Of a stretch of DNA of 39,499 bases, positions 1,923 to 35,123 are shown piece by piece. The translations under genes and the position numbers were made by a program. How positions within the stretch are numbered: position 1 is the stretch's first letter; every line of letters starts with the position of its first letter. This stretch comes from a virus. Where the stretch lies: the UHGV virus genome UHGV-0144131; one strand, given 5' to 3'. The notes below the pieces were generated by a model, which made no database searches, was not told where the DNA came from, and saw only the letters and a list, made by a program, of their open reading frames with translations.

Positions 1923-2119
1923 TACTGGCTGCGACATTTTTGAATAAAAGCGTCGACATTTCGGCGCTCATAACGAACTACTTTTGCACTGAAACGAATT
2001 GGTGCCAGGATAGCCCGATGACGATGCTTAATATTCCACTCACATAGCGTTTTCTGTGTAATACCTAACTTTTGGCATACTTCATCCGGGGTGAGTAAAT
2101 CGTCGGGTTTCTCGCTCAT
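1919..2119 (-). CDS. xis: AlpA/Xis-like excisionase or DNA-binding regulator
   Basis: 66-aa protein with a helix-turn-helix-like segment (LTPDEVCQKLGITQKTLCEW) and a basic C-terminus, resembling the AlpA family; lies next to int. Confidence 0.65.
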   Translation of the reverse strand: MSEKPDDLLTPDEVCQKLGITQKTLCEWNIKHRHRAILAPIRFSAKVVRYERRNVDAFIQKCRSQY

Positions 2120-3528
2120 GCTATACCTCTCTTTTTCATGGCATCGAGCAGGATGTCCTGCACTGTTCGTTTTGAGTTGCGCCGCTCCATCACCATTTCG
2201 TCCATAGTGTCGGCAGCAATAATGTGGTGAATAAATACCGGACGATTGTGTCCGGCCTGTATCTGCCTGGTGGGGCCGATACGTTCAATAATTTGCTGAT
2301 ATTGCTCCAGGTCCCACCAGTGTGAGAAAAATACCAGTATATTTCCGCCGTCCTGCATGTTCAGGCCGTGGCCCGCGCTGGCTGGGTGTGCAAAGAGAAC
2401 AGGAATCTTTCCGGAATTCCAGTCGCGCAGTGTCTGTGGATCCTGGTCGAGGTGACGACCGCGAGGGAATGCTTTAAGCAAGCGTTCAAGATCGTGTTTC
2501 CAGTGATAAGCAACCAGCACAGGTGCGCCAGCTGCTTCGGTCAGTATGCTGTCCAGCGCCTGTAGTTTGGTGTCATGCAGTTCTGACCAACTTCCGGTGT
2601 CGTCTGTGTATACTGCGCCACTGGCGATTTGAAGACACTTCAGTGTCTTTGCCGCGGCGTTCGGTGCTTCGATGCCTTCGCTATTCAGCTCGAGGAACAT
2701 TTCCTTTTCCATTTCACGATACTGCTGACGGGCCTTCGGGGGCATATCCACGCGGATTACGTTATGGATGGGGTCTTTGATATCGAACCAGTCGGCCGCA
2801 TCCAGCGAGAGGGTCACATCGGCTAATGCTCGCTGTATTTCACCCTGTGAGTGAGCAAAAGGTTCCAGTTTAGTCCAGCTCTGTCCCGGAAACTGTATCG
2901 AGTTGAACCAGCGTGAGGTAAACGCACCGTAAGTGCGCCCGAGACGTTGCCCCTGGTCCACAAACCACGCTTGTCCCCACAAATCTACCAGGCCGTTCGG
3001 TGCTGGCGTACCGGTGAGATTTATCCAGCGCCGGACATACTTATGCGCCACTTTGCCTAGTGCCGCAGCGCGCTTACCACCACCTCGTAGCCGGAAGGAT
3101 TTTAGCCGGGTGCTTTCATCTGGAATAACAGTACCGAACGGCCATCGTTCTCCCAATTCCTCAACCAGCCAGACAAGGTTATCGTAGTTGATGGTGAACA
3201 CGCTCGCGTTGCTGTTCGCCAGCGCCGTAGAGCGCGCTTTGGCGTTACCGATAATCGGCTGTACCTCAATATTACGCAGGTGCCCCCATTTAACAGCTTC
3301 ATCAGGCCAGGTGCTTGCTGCAACGCGTAGCGGCGCGAGGACCAGTGCGGGGCGTGTTTCTGCCCCTGCCATAAAGAGATCTTCCAGCGTAGTGAGCGTT
3401 GCCACGGTTTTACCCATTCCCATTCCTGCCCAAATATTGCAGCGGGAAATACCTATTTCGTGATTAATAATTAGTTCTTGGTATAACCGGGGGGTAAAAG
3501 ATATCATAACAAGAGATAACCTATACAC
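2116..3528 (-). CDS. SNF2-family DEAD/DEAH-box helicase
   Basis: 470 aa with a Walker A motif (GMGMGKT), a DExx box (VIPDESTRLK) and C-terminal helicase-like motifs. Start may be the internal Met at 3507. Confidence 0.8.
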   Translation of the reverse strand: MYRLSLVMISFTPRLYQELIINHEIGISRCNIWAGMGMGKTVATLTTLEDLFMAGAETRPALVLAPLRVAASTWPDEAVKWGHLRNIEVQPIIGNAKARSTALANSNASVFTINYDNLVWLVEELGERWPFGTVIPDESTRLKSFRLRGGGKRAAALGKVAHKYVRRWINLTGTPAPNGLVDLWGQAWFVDQGQRLGRTYGAFTSRWFNSIQFPGQSWTKLEPFAHSQGEIQRALADVTLSLDAADWFDIKDPIHNVIRVDMPPKARQQYREMEKEMFLELNSEGIEAPNAAAKTLKCLQIASGAVYTDDTGSWSELHDTKLQALDSILTEAAGAPVLVAYHWKHDLERLLKAFPRGRHLDQDPQTLRDWNSGKIPVLFAHPASAGHGLNMQDGGNILVFFSHWWDLEQYQQIIERIGPTRQIQAGHNRPVFIHHIIAADTMDEMVMERRNSKRTVQDILLDAMKKRGIA

Positions 3529-3549
3529 ATTCTGAGATTAGGGGTTAAA

Positions 3550-4170
3550 ATGGATATTTGGGAAAAAAGTAAAATTATTATATTTTTGCTTTTCGTTATT
3601 CCTGGTTTTATAAGTATGAAAGTTTATAGTGTTATTCATCCTAATACCGCTTTTGATACTTCTAAAGCGATTGTGGAAATTGTTTCTTATAGCTGTATAA
3701 ATTACGCAGTATGGTTTGCTCCTATATATTTTATAGAATCTGAGGGTGTATATCTCAAACATCCTGTTCTTTATTGTGCTTTATACTTGGTGATTTTATT
3801 CATTAGCCCAATATTGTTAACGATATTTTTCTCTTGGATGCGAACTTGGCGTTGGTTATGTAATTATATGCCACATCCTACCGGAAGAGCTTGGGATTAT
3901 TTCTTTGGGTTAAAAGTCCCCTGTTGGATGATTATTACGCTAAAAAATGGTAAAAAAATAGCAGGCAAGTTTGGGGCTAACTCATTTGCTTCCAGTGCAC
4001 CAGAGCCAGAGCAAATTTATCTTGAGGAACATTGGGTTCTAAACGATGATGGGGGATTTGAACGCCCTCGAGTTTCAACATTAGGAATATTAATTTTAGG
4101 TAACGATATAGAAAATTTAGAGTTTTTCCGTTTTGAACTACCAACATGCAATAATGGAGAAAGCAACTGA
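3550..4170 (+). CDS. AT-rich membrane protein of unknown function (accessory cargo)
   Basis: 206 aa; N-terminal half has hydrophobic helices (IIIFLLFVIPGFISMKVYSVI, LYCALYLVILFISPILLTIFFSW), C-terminal half is soluble. Visibly AT-rich and transcribed opposite to the surrounding operon. RBS AGGGG upstream of ATG. Confidence 0.6.
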   Translation: MDIWEKSKIIIFLLFVIPGFISMKVYSVIHPNTAFDTSKAIVEIVSYSCINYAVWFAPIYFIESEGVYLKHPVLYCALYLVILFISPILLTIFFSWMRTWRWLCNYMPHPTGRAWDYFFGLKVPCWMIITLKNGKKIAGKFGANSFASSAPEPEQIYLEEHWVLNDDGGFERPRVSTLGILILGNDIENLEFFRFELPTCNNGESN

Positions 4171-4313
4171 TGTCAGATACCAAAAGAAGTTATAAGGAAG
4201 ATGGATATACCCCTATTGAAAAAGGGTATCAGCCTAAAAATGACTTGGCTAATAATGGTTTTCAACCTTCGAAGCAAACTTCCCAGCCAGCTCCACCACC
4301 CAAAAAACCATAA
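4170..4313 (+). CDS. Small Lys/Pro-rich hypothetical protein, translationally coupled to the membrane protein
   Basis: 47-codon ORF (MSDTKRSYKEDGYTPIEKGYQPKNDLANNGFQPSKQTSQPAPPPKKP) whose ATG overlaps the upstream stop as TGATG. Too short for the supplied ORF track; hand-translated. Confidence 0.3.
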   Translation: MSDTKRSYKEDGYTPIEKGYQPKNDLANNGFQPSKQTSQPAPPPKKP

Positions 4314-4619
4314 CTAAGTATTGGGGGGAATAATTCCCCCCAGCTCTTTGCTATCCAGTACCACCACGGTAAAGCCCAGCTTTCGCAGACGTTCATGTGT
4401 GCGCAACTGGTCAGGTCGTGGTGGTTTGCCGGGGGATTTACATTCAACGAAAACGATGCGACCGCCGGGTAGCAGAACAATGCGATCCGGTACCGAGCGG
4501 CGACCGGGAGATACGAACTTAAAGGCAACCCCGCCAGCTTTTTTCACTTCAGCGACGAGATGCTTTTCGATAAGGCTTTCACGTTCATAGGCCATCATCC
4601 ACCGCCTTACGCTTTTCAC
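4314..4619 (-). CDS. VRR-NUC domain nuclease
   Basis: About 95-101 aa with a PD-(D/E)xK-like core (PDRIVLLPGGRIVFVECKSPGKPPRPDQL), typical of small phage VRR-NUC proteins. The likely start is an internal Met around 4598, which would remove the overlap with the next gene. Confidence 0.7.
   Translation of the reverse strand: MKSVRRWMMAYERESLIEKHLVAEVKKAGGVAFKFVSPGRRSVPDRIVLLPGGRIVFVECKSPGKPPRPDQLRTHERLRKLGFTVVVLDSKELGGIIPPNT
4322..4340. terminator. GC hairpin, candidate bidirectional terminator
   Basis: GGGGGGAATAATTCCCCCC is a perfect inverted repeat between the + strand cassette and the - strand VRR-NUC gene. Confidence 0.4.
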
Positions 4620-4871: not shown

Positions 4872-5633
4872 TTAAGATGAAGCGTTCGCTATTTGAGCTT
4901 CATTAAATGTGAAACCGGCCTGTTTAAGGCGCTGGATTAAGCGAGGTACAGTTTCTCGAACATGATCATTAAAGTTGAGATAAAGAATACCCGCAGCATC
5001 AGAAGGCTGTTCAAGGTGTTGCTTCTGCAAGATGACCACGTTACTGCGGCCGAGTGATGATAACAACATCCCCATTTCTAGAACTACATTTTGACGAGCC
5101 CTGGGCAGGGCTGCTTCTTGACCGTCTCTTTTGGAGTATCCCACATCATCGGGAGTGAGAAGAACAATGCCGAAACGAGTCGCTGTCTGCCCTTGACCAA
5201 TTTCACGCTCCAGTTCTTCAATTATCGTAAGTCCAGTACCACCTGTATTCTGCAAAATAAAATGATCAGGTAACCCAAGCTTATGAAGAATGAGCTCAAG
5301 CTGCTCTTTTGCTGCATGGTCGTGACCGTGAACGATGAAAATCTTTTTGGCTGGCTCTTGAACCGGGGCTGGCTGAACTCGTTGAGCTGGCGCGTTACCC
5401 AAGTGTTCATTAATAATGGCTTCAACCTCTGGTTTTGCCGCTTGTGAGCCTTGAATCAAAATCGTTCCGGTGTGGTAAAGCGTTATGATGGCACCATTAC
5501 TTAAACGATAACAATCATGACCGGCTTTGTTTTCTTCTCCGGTAACATCAAATCCGGATTCGACTAAAAATTGACGAAAAGTTTCGACAGGGTGTGGGTA
5601 TTTGAGAGCCATTTCATTGAGATCCTGCATCAT
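4872..5633 (-). CDS. TIR-like nucleotide-binding domain protein with an N-terminal domain of unknown function
   Basis: 253 aa. The C-terminal ~150 aa begins KKIFIVHGHDHAAKEQLELILHKLGL...GIVLLTPDD, matching my recollection of the TIR-like family (COG4271/PF10137-type: hydrophobic strand + HG+D, conserved Gly, acidic patch). Tandem ATGATG start with AGGA RBS. Confidence 0.55.
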   Translation of the reverse strand: MMQDLNEMALKYPHPVETFRQFLVESGFDVTGEENKAGHDCYRLSNGAIITLYHTGTILIQGSQAAKPEVEAIINEHLGNAPAQRVQPAPVQEPAKKIFIVHGHDHAAKEQLELILHKLGLPDHFILQNTGGTGLTIIEELEREIGQGQTATRFGIVLLTPDDVGYSKRDGQEAALPRARQNVVLEMGMLLSSLGRSNVVILQKQHLEQPSDAAGILYLNFNDHVRETVPRLIQRLKQAGFTFNEAQIANASS

Positions 5634-7838: not shown

Positions 7839-9341
7839 TTAATATGATAAATAATCATACAAGCATAAAAGTCGCCTGTATTGGGTATCAATTTTATGCC
7901 CTGGTTTTGTTAAATAATCTCGTAGTTGTTTCAATGAAATAGTATCGTTTAGTACGCAATACATAATCGTGTTAGCAACTTTATACTCTTTCGTTTCTTT
8001 TAGTATTTCATCAATAGACACAGCCTCACTCTTACATGTTTTAATTCGAGAAAGGTTACCAATGATTTTATCTAGCTGCCGTTTTCTGTATGTCTCGGTA
8101 TTTTCTAGTTCAGGGCAGATAGAACTAAAAGCGTATATTGGAAAGTGTTCGCTATTAGCTATGGTTTGCTTATTCAGTAATGCGATAAGCTGAGAGTTTG
8201 CTTCGTCAACTATTTTAAAATAGTTCTGTATCATTTCAGATTTTGTTTGATAAACATATTGTACGGTTCTTTCTGAACCAACAGCAATGACCATTTCATC
8301 ATTGCGAAGTTCATCTAAATTTTCTGTAATTTTAACCTTTATCTCACCACCACTTTTGATGGTACTCCAAACTTTTTGAACCTTTCTTATGTCCATTGCG
8401 GATACTGGCAAAACTAGTCCAGAGATGGCATCATATACAGCTTTGTAATTGTTTGTTTTTATTTTGTTTATTCTTATGATAGACATGCCTTCTATATCTA
8501 TGTCATGCTCCGTAATTTCAGTTGACATGCTGTCTTTTTCGTATTCAACCAAAAGGAAATTATCTTTTATCCTTTTTGCAAGTTCGGTATTTAAGTCAAC
8601 GTATGAGAATATGGTTTTTAATAAGTACTTAATGTTTTTATCGCTAATACTATACCCTATAAATATGATAGGGTTGTGTATGAATATTGAGAGTAATTGA
8701 GCGCGAATTAACTCATATTTATTGTCGAAGTTTGCGTAGTCTTCACCTGTGATAATTATGTTGTTAGGATCACTAACACAGCCATGTATTTTGTAAACTG
8801 AACCGTATGGGTTACTTAAAAGAATGTTGTTACCAATCAGTGGGTTAAATTCGAAGATATTCTCTACGAGTTGGTCGTAGTTTGTTGTAATGATGGAGCC
8901 TATGTTTTTTCTTGTTTTTATTAAGCTGTTTATTTCCTCCATCATTGACTCTTTTATCTTTAGGTCTTTAAGTATTGAAGTTAAATAAATTTTGAATCGA
9001 CTTAGTTTTTTTCCTTTTTTCATGTGCTCATAGAAAACATCATTGATGTCTTTGAACTTACCGTTACGGTCTTCTGCCAGCTTTTTATTAAAAATATCTT
9101 CAAGTTTTGTAGCTAAGATATCATATCGATAGTCGTCACCTTCTAGGCTTTCAGCTTTCAAATCGTAGTAAAACTCAGCATTACCGGTTAGTTCCATTGC
9201 GACACTCAAAAGAAGACCATCCCAGCTAAATGAGTTTTCTAGATACCGTAGGCTAAATCCTGTTCCAATGAATAGAACAGGGTGGTTTTTATAGTGACTT
9301 ACAAACTCTTGGATTTCCATACCGATTCTCAAAGTTGACAC
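7839..9341 (-). CDS. SIR2-like (SIR2_2 / ThsA-like) protein, candidate NAD+-consuming defence effector
   Basis: 500 aa. N-terminal ~280 aa carries motifs I associate with defence-type sirtuin domains: glycine-rich loop FIGTGFS, TTNYD, KIHG, then IFIGYSISD. C-terminal ~200 aa is unassigned. Strongly AT-rich; GTG start at 9341 with AGAGG RBS; own terminator at 7792..7818. Confidence 0.7.
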   Translation of the reverse strand: MSTLRIGMEIQEFVSHYKNHPVLFIGTGFSLRYLENSFSWDGLLLSVAMELTGNAEFYYDLKAESLEGDDYRYDILATKLEDIFNKKLAEDRNGKFKDINDVFYEHMKKGKKLSRFKIYLTSILKDLKIKESMMEEINSLIKTRKNIGSIITTNYDQLVENIFEFNPLIGNNILLSNPYGSVYKIHGCVSDPNNIIITGEDYANFDNKYELIRAQLLSIFIHNPIIFIGYSISDKNIKYLLKTIFSYVDLNTELAKRIKDNFLLVEYEKDSMSTEITEHDIDIEGMSIIRINKIKTNNYKAVYDAISGLVLPVSAMDIRKVQKVWSTIKSGGEIKVKITENLDELRNDEMVIAVGSERTVQYVYQTKSEMIQNYFKIVDEANSQLIALLNKQTIANSEHFPIYAFSSICPELENTETYRKRQLDKIIGNLSRIKTCKSEAVSIDEILKETKEYKVANTIMYCVLNDTISLKQLRDYLTKPGHKIDTQYRRLLCLYDYLSY

Positions 9342-32989: not shown

Positions 32990-34057
32990 ATGTCACAGAA
33001 CTGGATGAGACATTTCGAGCTGCAGCTTGTGGACGGGAACGGTCAGGGAATTGAGCTAAGTGATTTCAAAGTCACCTTTACGATCGACTGGTTCAACATC
33101 AGCAGCGCGTCCCGGGTAGGGACTATCAAAATTTATAACCTCTCGGCAGATACTGTGAACCGAATCACCGGGCAGGAATTTTCGAAAGTGCGTCTGATTG
33201 CCGGTTACGACGGTATCGCGCCGGAGGTGTCAGCAAGCGACGTAGGGACCGTGCGGGAAGTTGACGCGGCGGACGTGGGCCAGAGAGATGGCCGCAACTA
33301 CGGACTGATTTTCAGCGGTGAAATTCGCTACTCGGTCACAGGAAAAGACAGTCCGGTTGATTCCTACGTCCTGATTCAGGCAGCAGATACTGATCTGGCT
33401 TTTGCCACCAGTATAACCTCACAGACGCTGGCTGCCGGTTACACGGTCGCTGATGTGAACCGTGCGCTGATGAAAGACTTCGAAGCCAAAGGTGCGACCG
33501 AAGGCCTGACGCCTGAAATGCCTGCTACTGTATTCCCCCGGGGGCGGGTGCTCTTTGGCATGACGCGGCATCTAATGGATAACGTAGCCGGGCAATGTGG
33601 CGCAACATGGCAATTCGTGGATGGTCAGCGCCAGATGGTGGTGAATAATGAATATGTTCACGAAGCGATTGTGCTCAACAGCGCTACCGGGCTTATTGGC
33701 ATGCCGCAGCAGACCATCGGCAACGGCGTAAACGTCCGCGCGCTTATTAATCCGAACATCCGGGTTAATGGGCTCATTCAACTGGATCAGGCTTCCGTAT
33801 ATCGCACCGCGTTGTCGAACAACGATATCGCTATGGCTGGTGGGCAGATCACCGACCAGAACACGGACGGAAATATTACGCTAAGCGGCACCATATCGCA
33901 GCCTGCCAGCATCGCAACGGATGGCGTTTATATTGTGCGCGGGATTATGTACACTGGCGACACAAGGGGCCAGGCGTGGTACATGGATATGATGTGCGAA
34001 GCGCGCGGTGCGGCGGATCTTCGTTCGGCGTCGTCTTTACAGCGTGAGGTAGGATAG
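32990..34057 (+). CDS. Putative baseplate hub protein
   Basis: 355 aa between tape measure and baseplate V/W/J; assigned by position and size. Confidence 0.45.
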   Translation: MSQNWMRHFELQLVDGNGQGIELSDFKVTFTIDWFNISSASRVGTIKIYNLSADTVNRITGQEFSKVRLIAGYDGIAPEVSASDVGTVREVDAADVGQRDGRNYGLIFSGEIRYSVTGKDSPVDSYVLIQAADTDLAFATSITSQTLAAGYTVADVNRALMKDFEAKGATEGLTPEMPATVFPRGRVLFGMTRHLMDNVAGQCGATWQFVDGQRQMVVNNEYVHEAIVLNSATGLIGMPQQTIGNGVNVRALINPNIRVNGLIQLDQASVYRTALSNNDIAMAGGQITDQNTDGNITLSGTISQPASIATDGVYIVRGIMYTGDTRGQAWYMDMMCEARGAADLRSASSLQREVG

Positions 34058-34410
34058 TGAAAAAGTGGATTGTTATTGGACTCTGTTTCCTTCCGGGGTT
34101 CGCATTTGCTGCGAATCCTGGCGGTGTCACGCTTCAGTGTGGTGGCTACAAATTAGAGTTGATTCCTGATTCATTGTTCAGGATTAATGGTGAGACAGTT
34201 ACCTCCCAGAAAATCAAAACGCTCGGCAACGGTAATGGAATGAAGGCGGATATGGGGCTTATGCCAGCCAAAGACGGTAACAATTACGGTTTCGAGTTCA
34301 TTCGCCGTCCGGGTACCGAAACGCGTTTCTTGAATGTCCAACTACTGCAGAACAGCATGGATGCGCCGAGAATCATAGGTTCGTTTCCTTGTAAGAAGGT
34401 TGACGATTAA
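34057..34410 (+). CDS. Small secreted (periplasmic) protein, accessory gene in the tail module
   Basis: 117 aa with a signal peptide (MKKWIVIGLCFLPGFAFA, AxA cleavage motif); GTG start; no resemblance to tail components. Confidence 0.5.
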   Translation: MKKWIVIGLCFLPGFAFAANPGGVTLQCGGYKLELIPDSLFRINGETVTSQKIKTLGNGNGMKADMGLMPAKDGNNYGFEFIRRPGTETRFLNVQLLQNSMDAPRIIGSFPCKKVDD

Positions 34411-34416
34411 TACAAT

Positions 34417-34947
34417 ATGTGCAATCAAAGGAATGAGGCTGTTGGCCTTGAAGTAGATACGATTTTGTCGTACTCGAGAGACAGGTATGAAGAAGTTAAG
34501 ACAACATACAGGCGGTTAGAGGACAAAGCTAATTTTCTTCTTGCTGTGCTTGGTGTTGAGATTTCTGCATTATTAGCCGTTTTTGGGTCCTTTGAGCTGG
34601 GACAACAGTTAAAGACTAGTCTATCCGCAAGATTGTCTCTATTGTGTCTATGTTCATGTTTTGTATGTTTGGTTTTTTGTTTTTATTATTTATGGAAATG
34701 TTGGGAACTTAGAAATATTCCCAAAATGCCTGTGCATCGAACACCTGAACAACATGAATTTCTTCTGAGGGGTAGTAGAGATGACACAGTCAGATTTCAT
34801 TTGATAATGTATGGTAGGGCTATTGATAGAATCGAGAAAATCCATAAAGAAAAATCAGCGTTTGTAAATGAGTTGTTTCGATGGATGGTTATGTCATTTG
34901 TATTTTTTATTATTTCTGTAACGTGCATGTTAATAAGTAAGGTTTGA
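34417..34947 (+). CDS. AT-rich two-helix membrane protein, accessory gene in the tail module
   Basis: 176 aa with hydrophobic helices (FLLAVLGVEISALLAVFG, LSLLCLCSCFVCLVFCFYYLW, WMVMSFVFFIISVTCMLI) and a charged N-terminal helix; visibly lower G+C than the flanking tail genes. Confidence 0.6.
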   Translation: MCNQRNEAVGLEVDTILSYSRDRYEEVKTTYRRLEDKANFLLAVLGVEISALLAVFGSFELGQQLKTSLSARLSLLCLCSCFVCLVFCFYYLWKCWELRNIPKMPVHRTPEQHEFLLRGSRDDTVRFHLIMYGRAIDRIEKIHKEKSAFVNELFRWMVMSFVFFIISVTCMLISKV

Positions 34948-34949
34948 AT

Positions 34950-35123
34950 ATGTCCTGTCCAGAAGACCAAAATGAACCACAACCTAAACCAAGTGAGCCT
35001 GAGGTCTCTTTCCTAGATAACTATGAGCAAGAGATTATGGCTAGAGTACCTTTCGGGGATATCGAAATTATGACGGAAAGCTATCACGACAAGCCTTCAA
35101 CTTTTCCCAAGAAAGATAGTTAG
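34950..35123 (+). CDS. Small acidic hypothetical protein
   Basis: 57-codon hand-translated ORF (MSCPEDQNEPQPKPSEPEVSFLDNYEQEIMARVPFGDIEIMTESYHDKPSTFPKKDS) starting 3 nt after the membrane-protein stop. Confidence 0.3.
   Translation: MSCPEDQNEPQPKPSEPEVSFLDNYEQEIMARVPFGDIEIMTESYHDKPSTFPKKDS

What the first reader, a model, noticed from the sequence alone, without database searches (positions are those of the whole stretch)
3529..4340. Opposite-strand AT-rich cassette: membrane protein plus coupled Lys/Pro-rich micro-ORF
A 206-aa protein with N-terminal transmembrane helices and a soluble C-terminal domain is transcribed against the surrounding leftward operon. A 47-codon ORF is translationally coupled to it (TGATG) and a GC hairpin follows at 4322..4340. 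Anti-sense orientation, low G+C and a membrane-effector-like architecture suggest superinfection exclusion, abortive infection or a toxin/antitoxin-like pair.
Basis: partly seen in the sequence, partly recalled or inferred. Interest (0 to 1): 0.55.

Follow-up and report, generated by a model that had tools for sequence, protein, structure and literature searches.

The report
Membrane Sm-like protein plus microprotein moron
The cassette is a real two-gene accessory module carried by a prophage: a membrane protein with an Hfq/Sm-like cytoplasmic domain and a tiny proline-rich partner found beside it across bacteria, archaea, phages and plasmids, and it sits where sister prophages carry a known anti-phage gene, so it is an untested candidate defence or toxin-antitoxin system.

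Summary
ORF 3550..4170 (+, 206 aa) is a Pfam DUF6338 protein. ORF 4170..4313 (+, 47 aa) overlaps its stop codon (TGATG). Both are AT-rich and antisense to the prophage early operon.

New findings:
2. The micro-ORF is a real gene (13-18 synonymous against 2-6 non-synonymous codon changes, in its own frame only). It belongs to an apparently undescribed microprotein family: two or three GYxP repeats and a PP(K/G)(K/D)x C-terminus. This family follows DUF6338 in 153 of 154 loci examined, including archaea, plasmids and viral contigs. The one exception is cut by an IS element.
3. Tail charge covaries with complementary charges in the Sm-like domain (D167, I128), which suggests direct binding.
4. 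No third gene is conserved. The pair sits in moron positions of four unrelated prophage types.
5. The same SNF2|VRR-NUC slot holds BstA, a validated abortive-infection gene, in sister E. coli prophages.

Function is inferred, not shown. The most likely reading is a conflict module in which the microprotein regulates a membrane-acting Sm-ring oligomer. No match to any PADLOC system.

The parts
3478..3507 (+). Sigma-70-like promoter candidate (TTGGTA-18-TATCAT). It overlaps the start of the divergent SNF2 gene.
   Evidence: It matches 9 of 12 positions, and the number of such sites in the region is not above chance, so it is only a candidate.
3540..3544 (+). Shine-Dalgarno sequence (AGGGG), 5 nt before the DUF6338 ATG.
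   Evidence: Read directly from the sequence.
3550..4170 (+). DUF6338 gene (206 aa, stop codon included).
   Evidence: Pfam PF19865, E 1.2e-35, 123 bits against a cutoff of 26.5. RefSeq WP_021544535.1 is annotated 'DUF6338 family protein'.
3556..3840 (+). Three transmembrane helices (aa 3-29, 37-64, 72-97) with N-out/C-in topology. TM2 carries the invariant polar motif Y47-S48-C49-x-N51-Y52.
   Evidence: AF2 model, helices H3-29, H37-64, H72-97. Across 83 homologues, K+R averages 3.4 after TM3, while the N-terminus and loop 2 are net acidic. Invariant columns are listed.
3889..4131 (+). Cytoplasmic Sm/LSm/Hfq-fold domain (aa 114-194: one helix and five bent strands). It is preceded by the invariant PHPxGRxWDYFF linker.
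4156..4159 (+). GGAG Shine-Dalgarno of the micro-ORF. Salmonella and Klebsiella alleles have GGAGG here.
   Evidence: Alignment A1.
4170..4313 (+). Microprotein gene (47 aa): MSDTKRSYKEDGYTPIEKGYQPKNDLANNGFQPSKQTSQPAPPPKKP. It has GYTP (4203-4214), GYQP (4224-4235), GFQP (4257-4268) and the C-terminal PPPKKP (4293-4310).
   Evidence: Purifying selection acts in this frame only. Homologous micro-ORFs follow DUF6338 in 82 of 83 genomes and 71 of 71 further loci. Related peptides were detected by mass spectrometry in P. stutzeri (PMC10433244).
4321..4343 (+). GC-rich hairpin (terminator-like, weak T-tract). It lies inside the 3' end of the converging VRR-NUC gene, and the right-hand cassette boundary falls within it.
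   Evidence: Homology with cassette-free prophages begins at about 4330.
2116..3507 (-). Left flank: SNF2-family helicase of the prophage early operon. It is not part of the module.
   Evidence: Pfam SNF2-rel_dom. Homology with cassette-free relatives ends at its start codon.
4314..4595 (-). Right flank: VRR-NUC/PDDEXK nuclease gene. It is not part of the module.

Best explanation
The cassette is a self-contained, horizontally mobile two-gene accessory module (a moron) inserted into a hypervariable defence slot of a roughly 40-kb prophage at yfhL.

Gene 1 (DUF6338) encodes an inner-membrane protein. It has three TM helices (N-terminus out, C-terminus in) and a cytoplasmic Sm/LSm-fold domain. 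Because Sm folds assemble into hexameric or heptameric rings, I infer that it forms a ring-shaped oligomer whose TM bundle can perturb or gate the membrane. This is the same layout as the MscS core, but without detectable homology.

Gene 2 is translationally coupled. It encodes an intrinsically disordered microprotein with three G-Y/F-x-P repeats and a C-terminal PPPKKP tail. I infer that this tail docks, with charge complementarity, on the Sm-like domain, and that the microprotein controls (most likely restrains) the membrane protein.

The most likely biological role is inter-element conflict. The lysogen would express the pair, and infection or loss of the labile microprotein would release a membrane-damaging activity, giving abortive infection or exclusion.

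Shown: gene reality, family membership, fold, topology signal, obligate pairing, mobility and slot variability.
Inferred: oligomerisation, binding, the direction of regulation, and any defence phenotype.
For: Family and fold:
- DUF6338 assignment.
- Positive-inside signal: K+R averages 3.4 after TM3.

Obligate pairing:
- A GYxP/PP-tail micro-ORF follows DUF6338 in 82 of 83 non-redundant genomes spanning many phyla and including two MAG contigs labelled archaeal. The exception is truncated by an IS21 element.
- The same holds in 71 of 71 viral-contig, plasmid and phage-plasmid loci, often as 2-3 tandem copies.
- PP is near-invariant at positions -5 and -4 from the C-terminus (80 and 78 of 83).
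- Selection acts in the micro-ORF frame only.
- P. stutzeri peptides ending APPPPKK, encoded beside a DUF6338 gene, were detected by MS at 44-114 PSMs.

Binding:
- The DUF6338 column with the highest mutual information with tail charge is D167. It is D/E in 46 of 49 basic-tail pairs and K/R in 18 of 28 acidic-tail pairs.
- Next is I128, which is K/R in 24 of 28 acidic-tail pairs and never in basic-tail pairs.
- The nine top columns all lie in the Sm-like domain or immediately after its last strand (residue 195).
- Identity within and between tail classes is similar (0.54 against 0.51), and the tail class switches about 15 times on a TM-domain tree.

Accessory and conflict context:
- The cassette is in 3 of 5426 E. 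coli genomes.
- No third gene is conserved. Neighbours include integrases, AbiEii, SIR2, ThsB-TIR, Abi_2, nSTAND3, KAP NTPase, SLATT and type I RM genes.
- The pair sits antisense in four unrelated prophage types.
- The identical slot holds BstA in two sister prophages (PADLOC E 1e-110 and 1e-115). BstA is a validated Abi protein (PMC8585504).
- PDC-S35 (TIR) and PDC-S25 (SIR2) candidate defence genes occupy the neighbouring slots of this prophage.
Against: - There is no functional datum for any DUF6338 protein. The literature holds one incidental mention.
- Neither protein matches PADLOC, PHROGs or NCBIfam.
- Guilt by location is weak evidence. The same slot also holds a Dcm methylase and Rha/Arc regulators.
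- Oligomeric state, pore formation and toxicity are untested.
- AF2 on a natural DUF6338-microprotein fusion left the tail disordered (pLDDT below 50 for residues 199-244), with only a slight rise at the last six residues.
- The covariation is not corrected rigorously for phylogeny.
- In most non-enterobacterial genomes the pair is co-oriented with its neighbours (58 of 78 upstream) and may be constitutively expressed, as in P. stutzeri. That also fits a housekeeping role.
Confidence: 0.45

Rival explanations
1. The pair is a toxin-antitoxin / addiction module. DUF6338 would be a membrane toxin and the disordered, protease-labile microprotein its protein antitoxin. The module would stabilise prophages and plasmids rather than defend against phages.
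For: - It is a compact, translationally coupled two-gene unit with no conserved third gene.
- It occurs on small mobilisable plasmids, 10.5 kb in Acinetobacter and 16 kb in Fluviibacter, the latter next to a MazF TA pair.
- In P. stutzeri the microproteins were abundant while the DUF6338 protein was undetected, as expected if an antitoxin is in excess.
- The only locus lacking an intact microprotein is an IS insertion.
- Charge covariation suggests direct binding.
Against: - No toxicity data exist.
- The membrane protein may have gone undetected for technical reasons.
- TA and abortive-infection functions are not mutually exclusive, so this overlaps the best explanation.
- The gene order, with the toxin first, is the less common arrangement.
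Confidence: 0.2
2. The pair is a classical superinfection-exclusion system. The prophage inner-membrane protein would block DNA injection of incoming phages, as Sie/Imm-type proteins do.
For: It is a prophage-encoded inner-membrane protein in a moron position, antisense to lytic genes, and so plausibly expressed in the lysogen.
Against: - The same pair occurs on plasmids, in contigs labelled archaeal (Methanosarcinales, Heimdallarchaeota MAGs) and in chromosomal islands without phage genes.
- The conserved bulk of the protein and its obligate partner are cytoplasmic.
- This model does not explain why a cytoplasmic GYxP microprotein is needed.
Confidence: 0.1
3. The pair has a function unrelated to conflict. 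It could be a physiological membrane device, such as a small stress-gated channel or a membrane-tethered Sm ring that binds RNA. Alternatively the microproteins could be cargo or precursors that DUF6338 recognises by their C-terminal tail and exports.
For: - The architecture matches the MscS core (3 TM helices, then an Sm-like beta domain).
- Sm rings classically bind RNA.
- In P. stutzeri the microproteins were well detected under both conditions tested, aerobic and oxygen-limited.
- Tandem micro-ORF paralogues with variable N-terminal parts and a conserved tail resemble multi-precursor peptide loci.
- The authors of PMC10433244 note that DUF6338 is found in biosynthetic gene clusters.
- Co-orientation with neighbours is common.
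Against: - Distribution is extremely patchy (3 of 5426 E. coli genomes).
- Neighbourhoods are hypervariable and enriched in mobile-element and defence genes.
- No conserved modifying enzyme or ATPase lies nearby.
- The microproteins have no signal peptide, no Cys/Ser/Thr pattern, and are only 11% hydrophobic.
- There is no sequence homology to MscS (Pfam gives no hit; hhalign probability is 1%).
Confidence: 0.17
4. The micro-ORF acts mainly through its translation. The PPP/PPG motif, fixed five codons before the stop, would stall ribosomes depending on EF-P or translation status. That would sense translational stress or control the downstream hairpin and read-through. The peptide itself would be incidental.
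For: - PP is near-invariant at -5/-4 from the stop codon, followed by K or G. From general knowledge, PPP and PPG are strong EF-P-dependent stalling motifs.
- In the window the hairpin starts 8 nt after the stop codon.
Against: - The GYxP repeats far from the stop codon are also conserved.
- The peptides accumulate to high PSM counts.
- Tail charge covaries with the partner protein's surface.
- The hairpin arrangement is specific to this prophage family.
Confidence: 0.05

Closest known systems
Pfam DUF6338 (PF19865), including the P. stutzeri locus Pstu14405_RS12030 with SEP1/SEP5/SEP2 (PMC10433244)
   Same: - The 206-aa protein is a full-length member.
- In P. stutzeri the DUF6338 gene is likewise followed by small proline-rich ORFs ending in APPPPKK / PPPPKR / PPPPPKKGG. 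These were detected by mass spectrometry.
   Different: - The family has no assigned function or described fold.
- The P. stutzeri authors considered the three peptides non-conserved, possibly de novo genes.
- Here the partner is shown to be a conserved family. The P. stutzeri copies have lost the GYxP repeats but keep the tail.
Hfq / Sm / LSm ring proteins
   Same: - From my own knowledge (Santiago-Frangos et al., eLife 2017), Hfq's disordered acidic C-terminal tip docks on basic rim patches of its own Sm ring. That is a cis analogue of the trans tail docking proposed here.
   Different: - The domain is fused to three TM helices and so is membrane-tethered.
- Sequence identity is only 10-22%.
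- RNA binding, Sm1/Sm2 motifs and ring formation were not tested.
- The partner here is a separate microprotein.
MscS-family mechanosensitive channels
   Same: The domain order and topology match: N-out, three TM helices, then a cytoplasmic Sm-like beta domain. In MscS this forms a heptameric ring under the pore.
   Different: - There is no C-terminal alpha/beta domain.
- DUF6338 has an obligate microprotein partner.
Membrane effectors of abortive-infection systems built as N-terminal TM helices plus a small C-terminal beta-barrel sensor (for example CBASS Cap15), and prophage morons such as BstA, RexAB and Sie proteins
   Same: - It is a small TM protein with a cytoplasmic beta-rich ligand-binding domain.
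- It is carried in variable slots of prophages.
- BstA occupies exactly this slot in sister prophages.
   Different: - No sequence match to any PADLOC model.
- No cyclase or other signal generator is present.
- The presumed ligand is a genetically coupled microprotein.
- The phenotype is untested.

Membership tests
Pfam DUF6338 (PF19865) | Full-length HMM match above the gathering score. | tested here: met
   E 1.2e-35, 123.4 bits against a cutoff of 26.5. Residues 8-193 match profile positions 7-200 of 205.
GYxP-repeat / PP-tail microprotein partner family (defined here; includes P. stutzeri SEP1/2/5) | A small hydrophilic ORF immediately after or overlapping the DUF6338 stop codon, with PP at positions -5 and -4 from the C-terminus followed by K/G, K/D, x. 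| tested here: met
   The window peptide ends ...APPPKKP and starts at the DUF6338 stop codon. PP at -5/-4 is found in 80 and 78 of 83 partners.
GYxP-repeat / PP-tail microprotein partner family | Two to three G-[YWFH]-x-P repeats. | tested here: met
   The window peptide has GYTP, GYQP and GFQP. Of 83 partners, 55 have three repeats and 22 have two.
Sm/LSm/Hfq fold | An N-terminal helix followed by a five-stranded, strongly bent beta sheet that superposes on solved Sm proteins. | tested here: met
   [not shown]
Sm/LSm/Hfq fold | Assembly into hexameric or heptameric rings, and RNA binding. | not testable with these tools
   Only monomer prediction was available.
MscS-family channel | Sequence homology to the MS_channel TM3 / beta-domain core (PF00924). 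| tested here: not met
   No Pfam hit at E <= 0.1. hhalign probability is 1%.
MscS-family channel | Three TM helices, N-out/C-in, followed by a cytoplasmic Sm-like beta domain. | tested here: met
   AF2 helices and strands and charge distribution. This is architectural resemblance only.
MscS-family channel | A C-terminal alpha/beta domain that closes the cytoplasmic vestibule. | tested here: not met
   The protein ends about 12 residues after the Sm-like domain.
Known or candidate anti-phage systems (PADLOC-DB v2) | An HMM match of either protein to a system component. | tested here: not met
   No family at E <= 1 for either ORF. The neighbouring TIR and SIR2 genes match PDC-S35 and PDC-S25.
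Prophage moron | Present or absent among otherwise collinear related prophages, with deviant base composition and independent orientation. | tested here: met
   The cassette is in 3 of 31 related E. coli prophages, and eight alternative cargoes occupy the same slot. G+C is 0.30-0.39 against 0.55. It is antisense to both flanks.
Prophage moron | Its own promoter and terminator. | tested here: inconclusive
   Promoter-like sites are not above chance. A hairpin is present but has a weak T-tract and lies inside VRR-NUC.
Toxin-antitoxin module | Two adjacent co-transcribed genes whose products interact. | tested here: inconclusive
   Adjacency and coupling are shown. Interaction is supported only by charge covariation. 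AF2 of a natural fusion was uninformative.
Toxin-antitoxin module | Toxicity of one product, neutralised by the other. | not testable with these tools
   This needs expression experiments.

The most novel reading that the evidence does not exclude
DUF6338 and its GYxP/PP-tail microprotein form a previously unrecognised, pan-prokaryotic class of mobile conflict system. A membrane-anchored Sm ring would be gated in trans by a disordered microprotein 'tail', which breaks or permeabilises the membrane on infection or on loss of the element. The partner peptides, mostly unannotated and reported as de novo genes in P. stutzeri, would then be among the most widespread overlooked microprotein families. 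About 2600 clusters at 50% identity of the DUF6338 partner exist.
Probability: 0.3. Interest if true: 0.8.

Novelty: new variant of a known kind. Interest (0 to 1): 0.62.

Why it matters
If the inference holds, three things follow.

1. A domain of unknown function with thousands of members in bacteria, archaea, phages and plasmids gains a fold (a membrane-tethered Sm ring), an obligate partner and a testable mechanism.
2. A microprotein family that annotation pipelines mostly miss is shown to be conserved across phyla. One proteomics study classed these peptides as lineage-specific de novo genes, so this is a cautionary case for 'orphan' small ORFs.
3. The SNF2|VRR-NUC slot of a common enterobacterial prophage family becomes a defined defence hotspot, with BstA in sister phages, that can be mined for further systems.

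The predicted charge-swap contact (D167/I128 against the KK or DE tail) gives an immediate and inexpensive experiment.

Tried and rejected
- PHROGs, PADLOC and NCBIfam scans of both proteins gave nothing. Pfam scans of several microproteins at E <= 10 also gave nothing.
- A profile search of PDB sequences gave no hit.
- A search for a conserved third gene found none. Pfam scans of 78 upstream and 79 downstream neighbours, and all-against-all clustering of 552 neighbours, showed only integrases (6 loci) and the SNF2 helicase of one prophage family recurring.
- Homology to MscS was rejected.
- An RiPP-like reading was considered and set aside. There are no conserved modifying enzymes and no Cys/Ser/Thr pattern.
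- AF2 of a natural DUF6338-microprotein fusion (P0146), run to see the tail dock, left the tail disordered and is inconclusive.
- The afdb50 fold library was unavailable.
- The BFVD viral library gave one uncharacterised siphovirus protein (E 1e-4).
- Literature searches for DUF6338, PF19865, GYQP and Sm-like with transmembrane and anti-phage found one incidental paper. The GYQP hits were all SARS-CoV-2 spike.
- Megablast against 50,697 phage records found no match to the cassette DNA. tblastn found one phage-plasmid, Klebsiella pJN2-26.
- The promoter scan was not above chance.
Full report
**1. Observation.**
The window carries, on the + strand, a 206-codon ORF (3550..4170) preceded by AGGGG. 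A 47-codon ORF (4170..4313) follows, and its ATG shares a base with the upstream TGA. G+C falls to 0.30-0.39 across the cassette, against 0.53-0.56 in the flanks. Both flanking genes are on the minus strand: an SNF2-family helicase (2116..3507 by the RefSeq start) and a VRR-NUC nuclease (4314..4595). A 10-pair GC hairpin lies at 4321..4343. It sits inside the last codons of the converging VRR-NUC gene and has a poor T-tract. Promoter-like hexamers at 3478..3507 are not more frequent than in shuffled sequence.

**2. Setting.**
The window is a roughly 40-kb prophage integrated beside yfhL. It carries an integrase, an AlpA-like excisionase, SNF2, VRR-NUC, an ANR/PerC-like regulator, family-A DNA polymerase, DUF2815/DUF2800, a VapE primase-helicase, a LexA-family repressor, Q, a lysis cassette, terminase, and head and contractile-tail genes.
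- The cassette DNA occurs at 100% identity in only 3 of 5426 complete E. coli genomes. Another 28 genomes match only the VRR-NUC side.
- Homology with cassette-free relatives stops at the SNF2 start codon and inside the hairpin.
- In the relatives inspected, the same slot holds seven other cargoes:
  - a 166-aa plus 71-aa pair;
  - a 243-aa ORF;
  - a 236-aa ORF;
  - a 106-aa ORF plus Dcm;
  - Rha/Arc regulators;
  - a 309-aa protein plus Dcm;
  - a 310-aa protein.
- The 309- and 310-aa proteins match PADLOC BstA at E 2.5e-110 and 1.4e-115. BstA is an experimentally validated prophage abortive-infection protein (PMC8585504).
- Two further low-G+C insertions in this prophage match the PADLOC candidates PDC-S35 (TIR, 4872..5633) and PDC-S25 (SIR2, 7839..9341).

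The slot is thus a defence hotspot in a prophage whose early region is studded with defence cargo.

**3. The large protein.**
- It is a full-length member of Pfam DUF6338 (E 1.2e-35). PHROGs, PADLOC, NCBIfam and PDB sequence searches are negative.
- The family is large. A profile search found 2593 representatives at 50% identity with E <= 1e-3.
- It is taxonomically very broad, at 40-50% identity to the E. coli protein. It covers many proteobacterial classes, Bacteroidales, Chloroflexota, Nitrospirota, Synergistaceae, and MAG contigs labelled Methanosarcinales and Heimdallarchaeota.
- An AF2 model (pLDDT 76) shows three TM helices (3-29, 37-64, 72-97). An invariant PHPxGRxWDYFF linker follows, and then a helix plus five-strand domain (114-194).
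- Charge statistics over 83 homologues place the segment after TM3 in the cytoplasm (K+R 3.4) and the N-terminus and loop 2 outside.
- TM2 is only moderately hydrophobic and carries an invariant polar YSCxNY motif.

**4. The micro-ORF.**
- Among the E. coli, Salmonella, K. aerogenes and K. pneumoniae alleles, 8-18 codons differ synonymously and 2-6 non-synonymously (13-16 against 4-6 for the window allele). In the two alternative frames nearly all changes are non-synonymous.
- In 82 of 83 non-redundant genomic loci, a small hydrophilic ORF follows or overlaps the DUF6338 stop codon. Its features are:
  - median length 56 aa;
  - composition P 18%, K 12%, G 10%, Q 8%, and 11% hydrophobic residues;
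  - two or three G-[YWFH]-x-P repeats, mostly GYQP;
  - a C-terminus with PP fixed at positions -5 and -4, followed by KKP/KKK or G(D/K)E.
- The single exception is truncated by an IS21 element.
- All 71 further loci with enough downstream sequence have one to three tandem copies. These loci are IMG/VR viral contigs, plasmids, the phage-plasmid pJN2-26 and metagenome contigs.
- A Sphingomonas plasmid homologue at 24% identity still has a GYQP partner.
- No Pfam or NCBIfam model covers these peptides.
- The one paper that mentions DUF6338 reports three MS-detected proline-rich peptides encoded next to a P. stutzeri DUF6338 gene and calls them non-conserved, possibly de novo. Their sequences end in APPPPKK, PPPPKRDSK and PPPPPKKGG, which is the same tail (PMC10433244). 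This gives indirect experimental support that such partners are translated and abundant.

**5. Evidence for a physical link.**
I classed the partners by tail charge: 49 basic, 28 acidic, 6 other.
- The DUF6338 alignment column with the highest mutual information is residue 167. It is D/E in 46 of 49 basic-tail pairs, K/R in 18 of 28 acidic-tail pairs, and neutral in 6 more.
- Next is residue 128. It is I/V/L (once T) in the 49 basic-tail pairs, never K/R, and is K/R in 24 of 28 acidic-tail pairs. Residues 174, 175, 195, 189, 188, 136 and 142 follow. Positions 100 and 193 gain Arg with acidic tails (R in 17 and 15 of 28).
- The nine best columns all lie in the Sm-like domain or immediately after its last strand (residue 195).
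- Mean identity within and between tail classes is similar (0.54 against 0.51).
- On an NJ tree built from the TM half only, the tail class changes about 15 times.
- This is the pattern expected for an electrostatic contact between the tail and the Sm-like domain. The test is not fully phylogeny-aware and is suggestive only.
- AF2 on a rare natural in-frame fusion (P0146) left the tail disordered.

**6. Mobility and neighbourhood.**
- No third gene is conserved.
- Immediate neighbours include integrases, AbiEii, SIR2_2, ThsB-TIR, Abi_2, nSTAND3, KAP NTPase, AAA_13/15/21, MmeI-type methylase, a nucleotidyltransferase-SLATT pair and a type I restriction enzyme.
- The pair is inserted antisense in four unrelated prophage backbones:
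  - the SNF2/PolA family, in E. coli, Salmonella, K. aerogenes, Morganella and Serratia, with different integrases;
  - lambdoid prophages, between DinI and the replication genes, once next to a KAP NTPase;
  - the end of a P2-like element;
  - between baseplate genes gpW and gpV of a Pseudomonas-type myovirus prophage.
- It also sits on small mobilisable plasmids.

**7. Interpretation.**
*Shown:*
- Both genes are real.
- They form an obligate, mobile pair.
- The large protein combines three TM helices with an Sm fold.
- The pair occupies accessory and defence slots.

*Inferred:*
- The protein forms rings.
- The microprotein tail binds the Sm-like domain.
- The pair acts in conflict.

I favour a model in which the microprotein restrains a membrane-perturbing oligomer, and infection or loss of the labile peptide releases it (abortive infection or exclusion). 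Confidence is about 0.45.

Rivals are a pure addiction/TA role (0.2), a non-conflict channel, RNA or export role (0.17), Sie-type injection block (0.1) and a translation-stalling sensor (0.05).

**8. Novelty.**
The DUF is catalogued but uncharacterised. As far as the searchable literature and family libraries show, the following are not described:
- the Sm-like fold;
- the conserved microprotein partner;
- the charge covariation;
- the hotspot context.

I rate the finding a new variant of a known kind, namely small membrane-effector modules carried as prophage morons. The interest score is 0.62.

Noticed in passing
window 34417..35123 (+): A second low-G+C island (0.36-0.37 against about 0.54) sits inside the tail/baseplate module. 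It holds a 176-aa ORF with several hydrophobic helices (34417..34947) and a 59-aa acidic ORF that overlaps it by 4 nt (34944..35123). These lie between a signal-peptide ORF (34057..34410) and the spike gene. RefSeq annotates nothing here, and Pfam has no hit. It may be another membrane-protein-plus-small-partner moron.
   Followed up: partly
window 4872..5633 (-) and 7839..9341 (-): A TIR-domain gene matches PADLOC candidate PDC-S35 (E 2e-109), and a SIR2-like gene matches PDC-S25 (E 4e-158). Both are low-G+C insertions in the replication module. Sister prophages carry DUF4406, BRO-N, Nmad5 or other genes at these slots, so the early region has at least three cargo hotspots.
   Followed up: partly
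L003 4055..4984 and L178 2558..3490 (E. coli DEC5E and CAU16175): In sister prophages, the slot occupied here by DUF6338 carries a BstA homologue (PADLOC E 1e-110 and 1e-115), once together with a Dcm methyltransferase.
   Followed up: yes
L002 5262..5974 (E. coli A34): The same slot holds a different + strand pair: a 166-aa protein (weak hit to the UNC-50 membrane family, E 2e-4) with a 71-aa ORF overlapping its end. This is another membrane-protein-plus-small-ORF arrangement of unknown function.
   Followed up: no
PMC10433244, Table S5 (P. stutzeri CP036186.1 2666728-2667116): SEP1, SEP5 and SEP2 were reported as non-conserved, possibly de novo small proteins. They share the C-terminal APPPPKK-type tail of the DUF6338 partner family and lie next to a DUF6338 gene. 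They are probably divergent members rather than de novo genes.
   Followed up: partly
L039 6590..8260: This is the only genomic locus without an intact partner. The micro-ORF (METKMPDKKR...) is cut after 20 codons by an IS21-family transposase insertion.
   Followed up: yes
L174 1079..3082 (Mesorhizobium plasmid NZ_CP088154.1): A distant DUF6338 homologue lies directly downstream of, and co-oriented with, a nucleotidyltransferase gene and a SLATT-domain gene. This is a pairing typical of conflict systems, and no GYxP partner was detected there.
   Followed up: no
L013 6623..6937, L168 10119..10430, and many IMG/VR loci (L139, L155-L164): The microprotein gene is often duplicated in tandem, two or three copies with divergent N-terminal parts and a conserved PPPKKP/PPPKNP tail. 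Several DUF6338 ORFs also run out of frame across the start of the micro-ORF, by up to 163 nt.
   Followed up: partly
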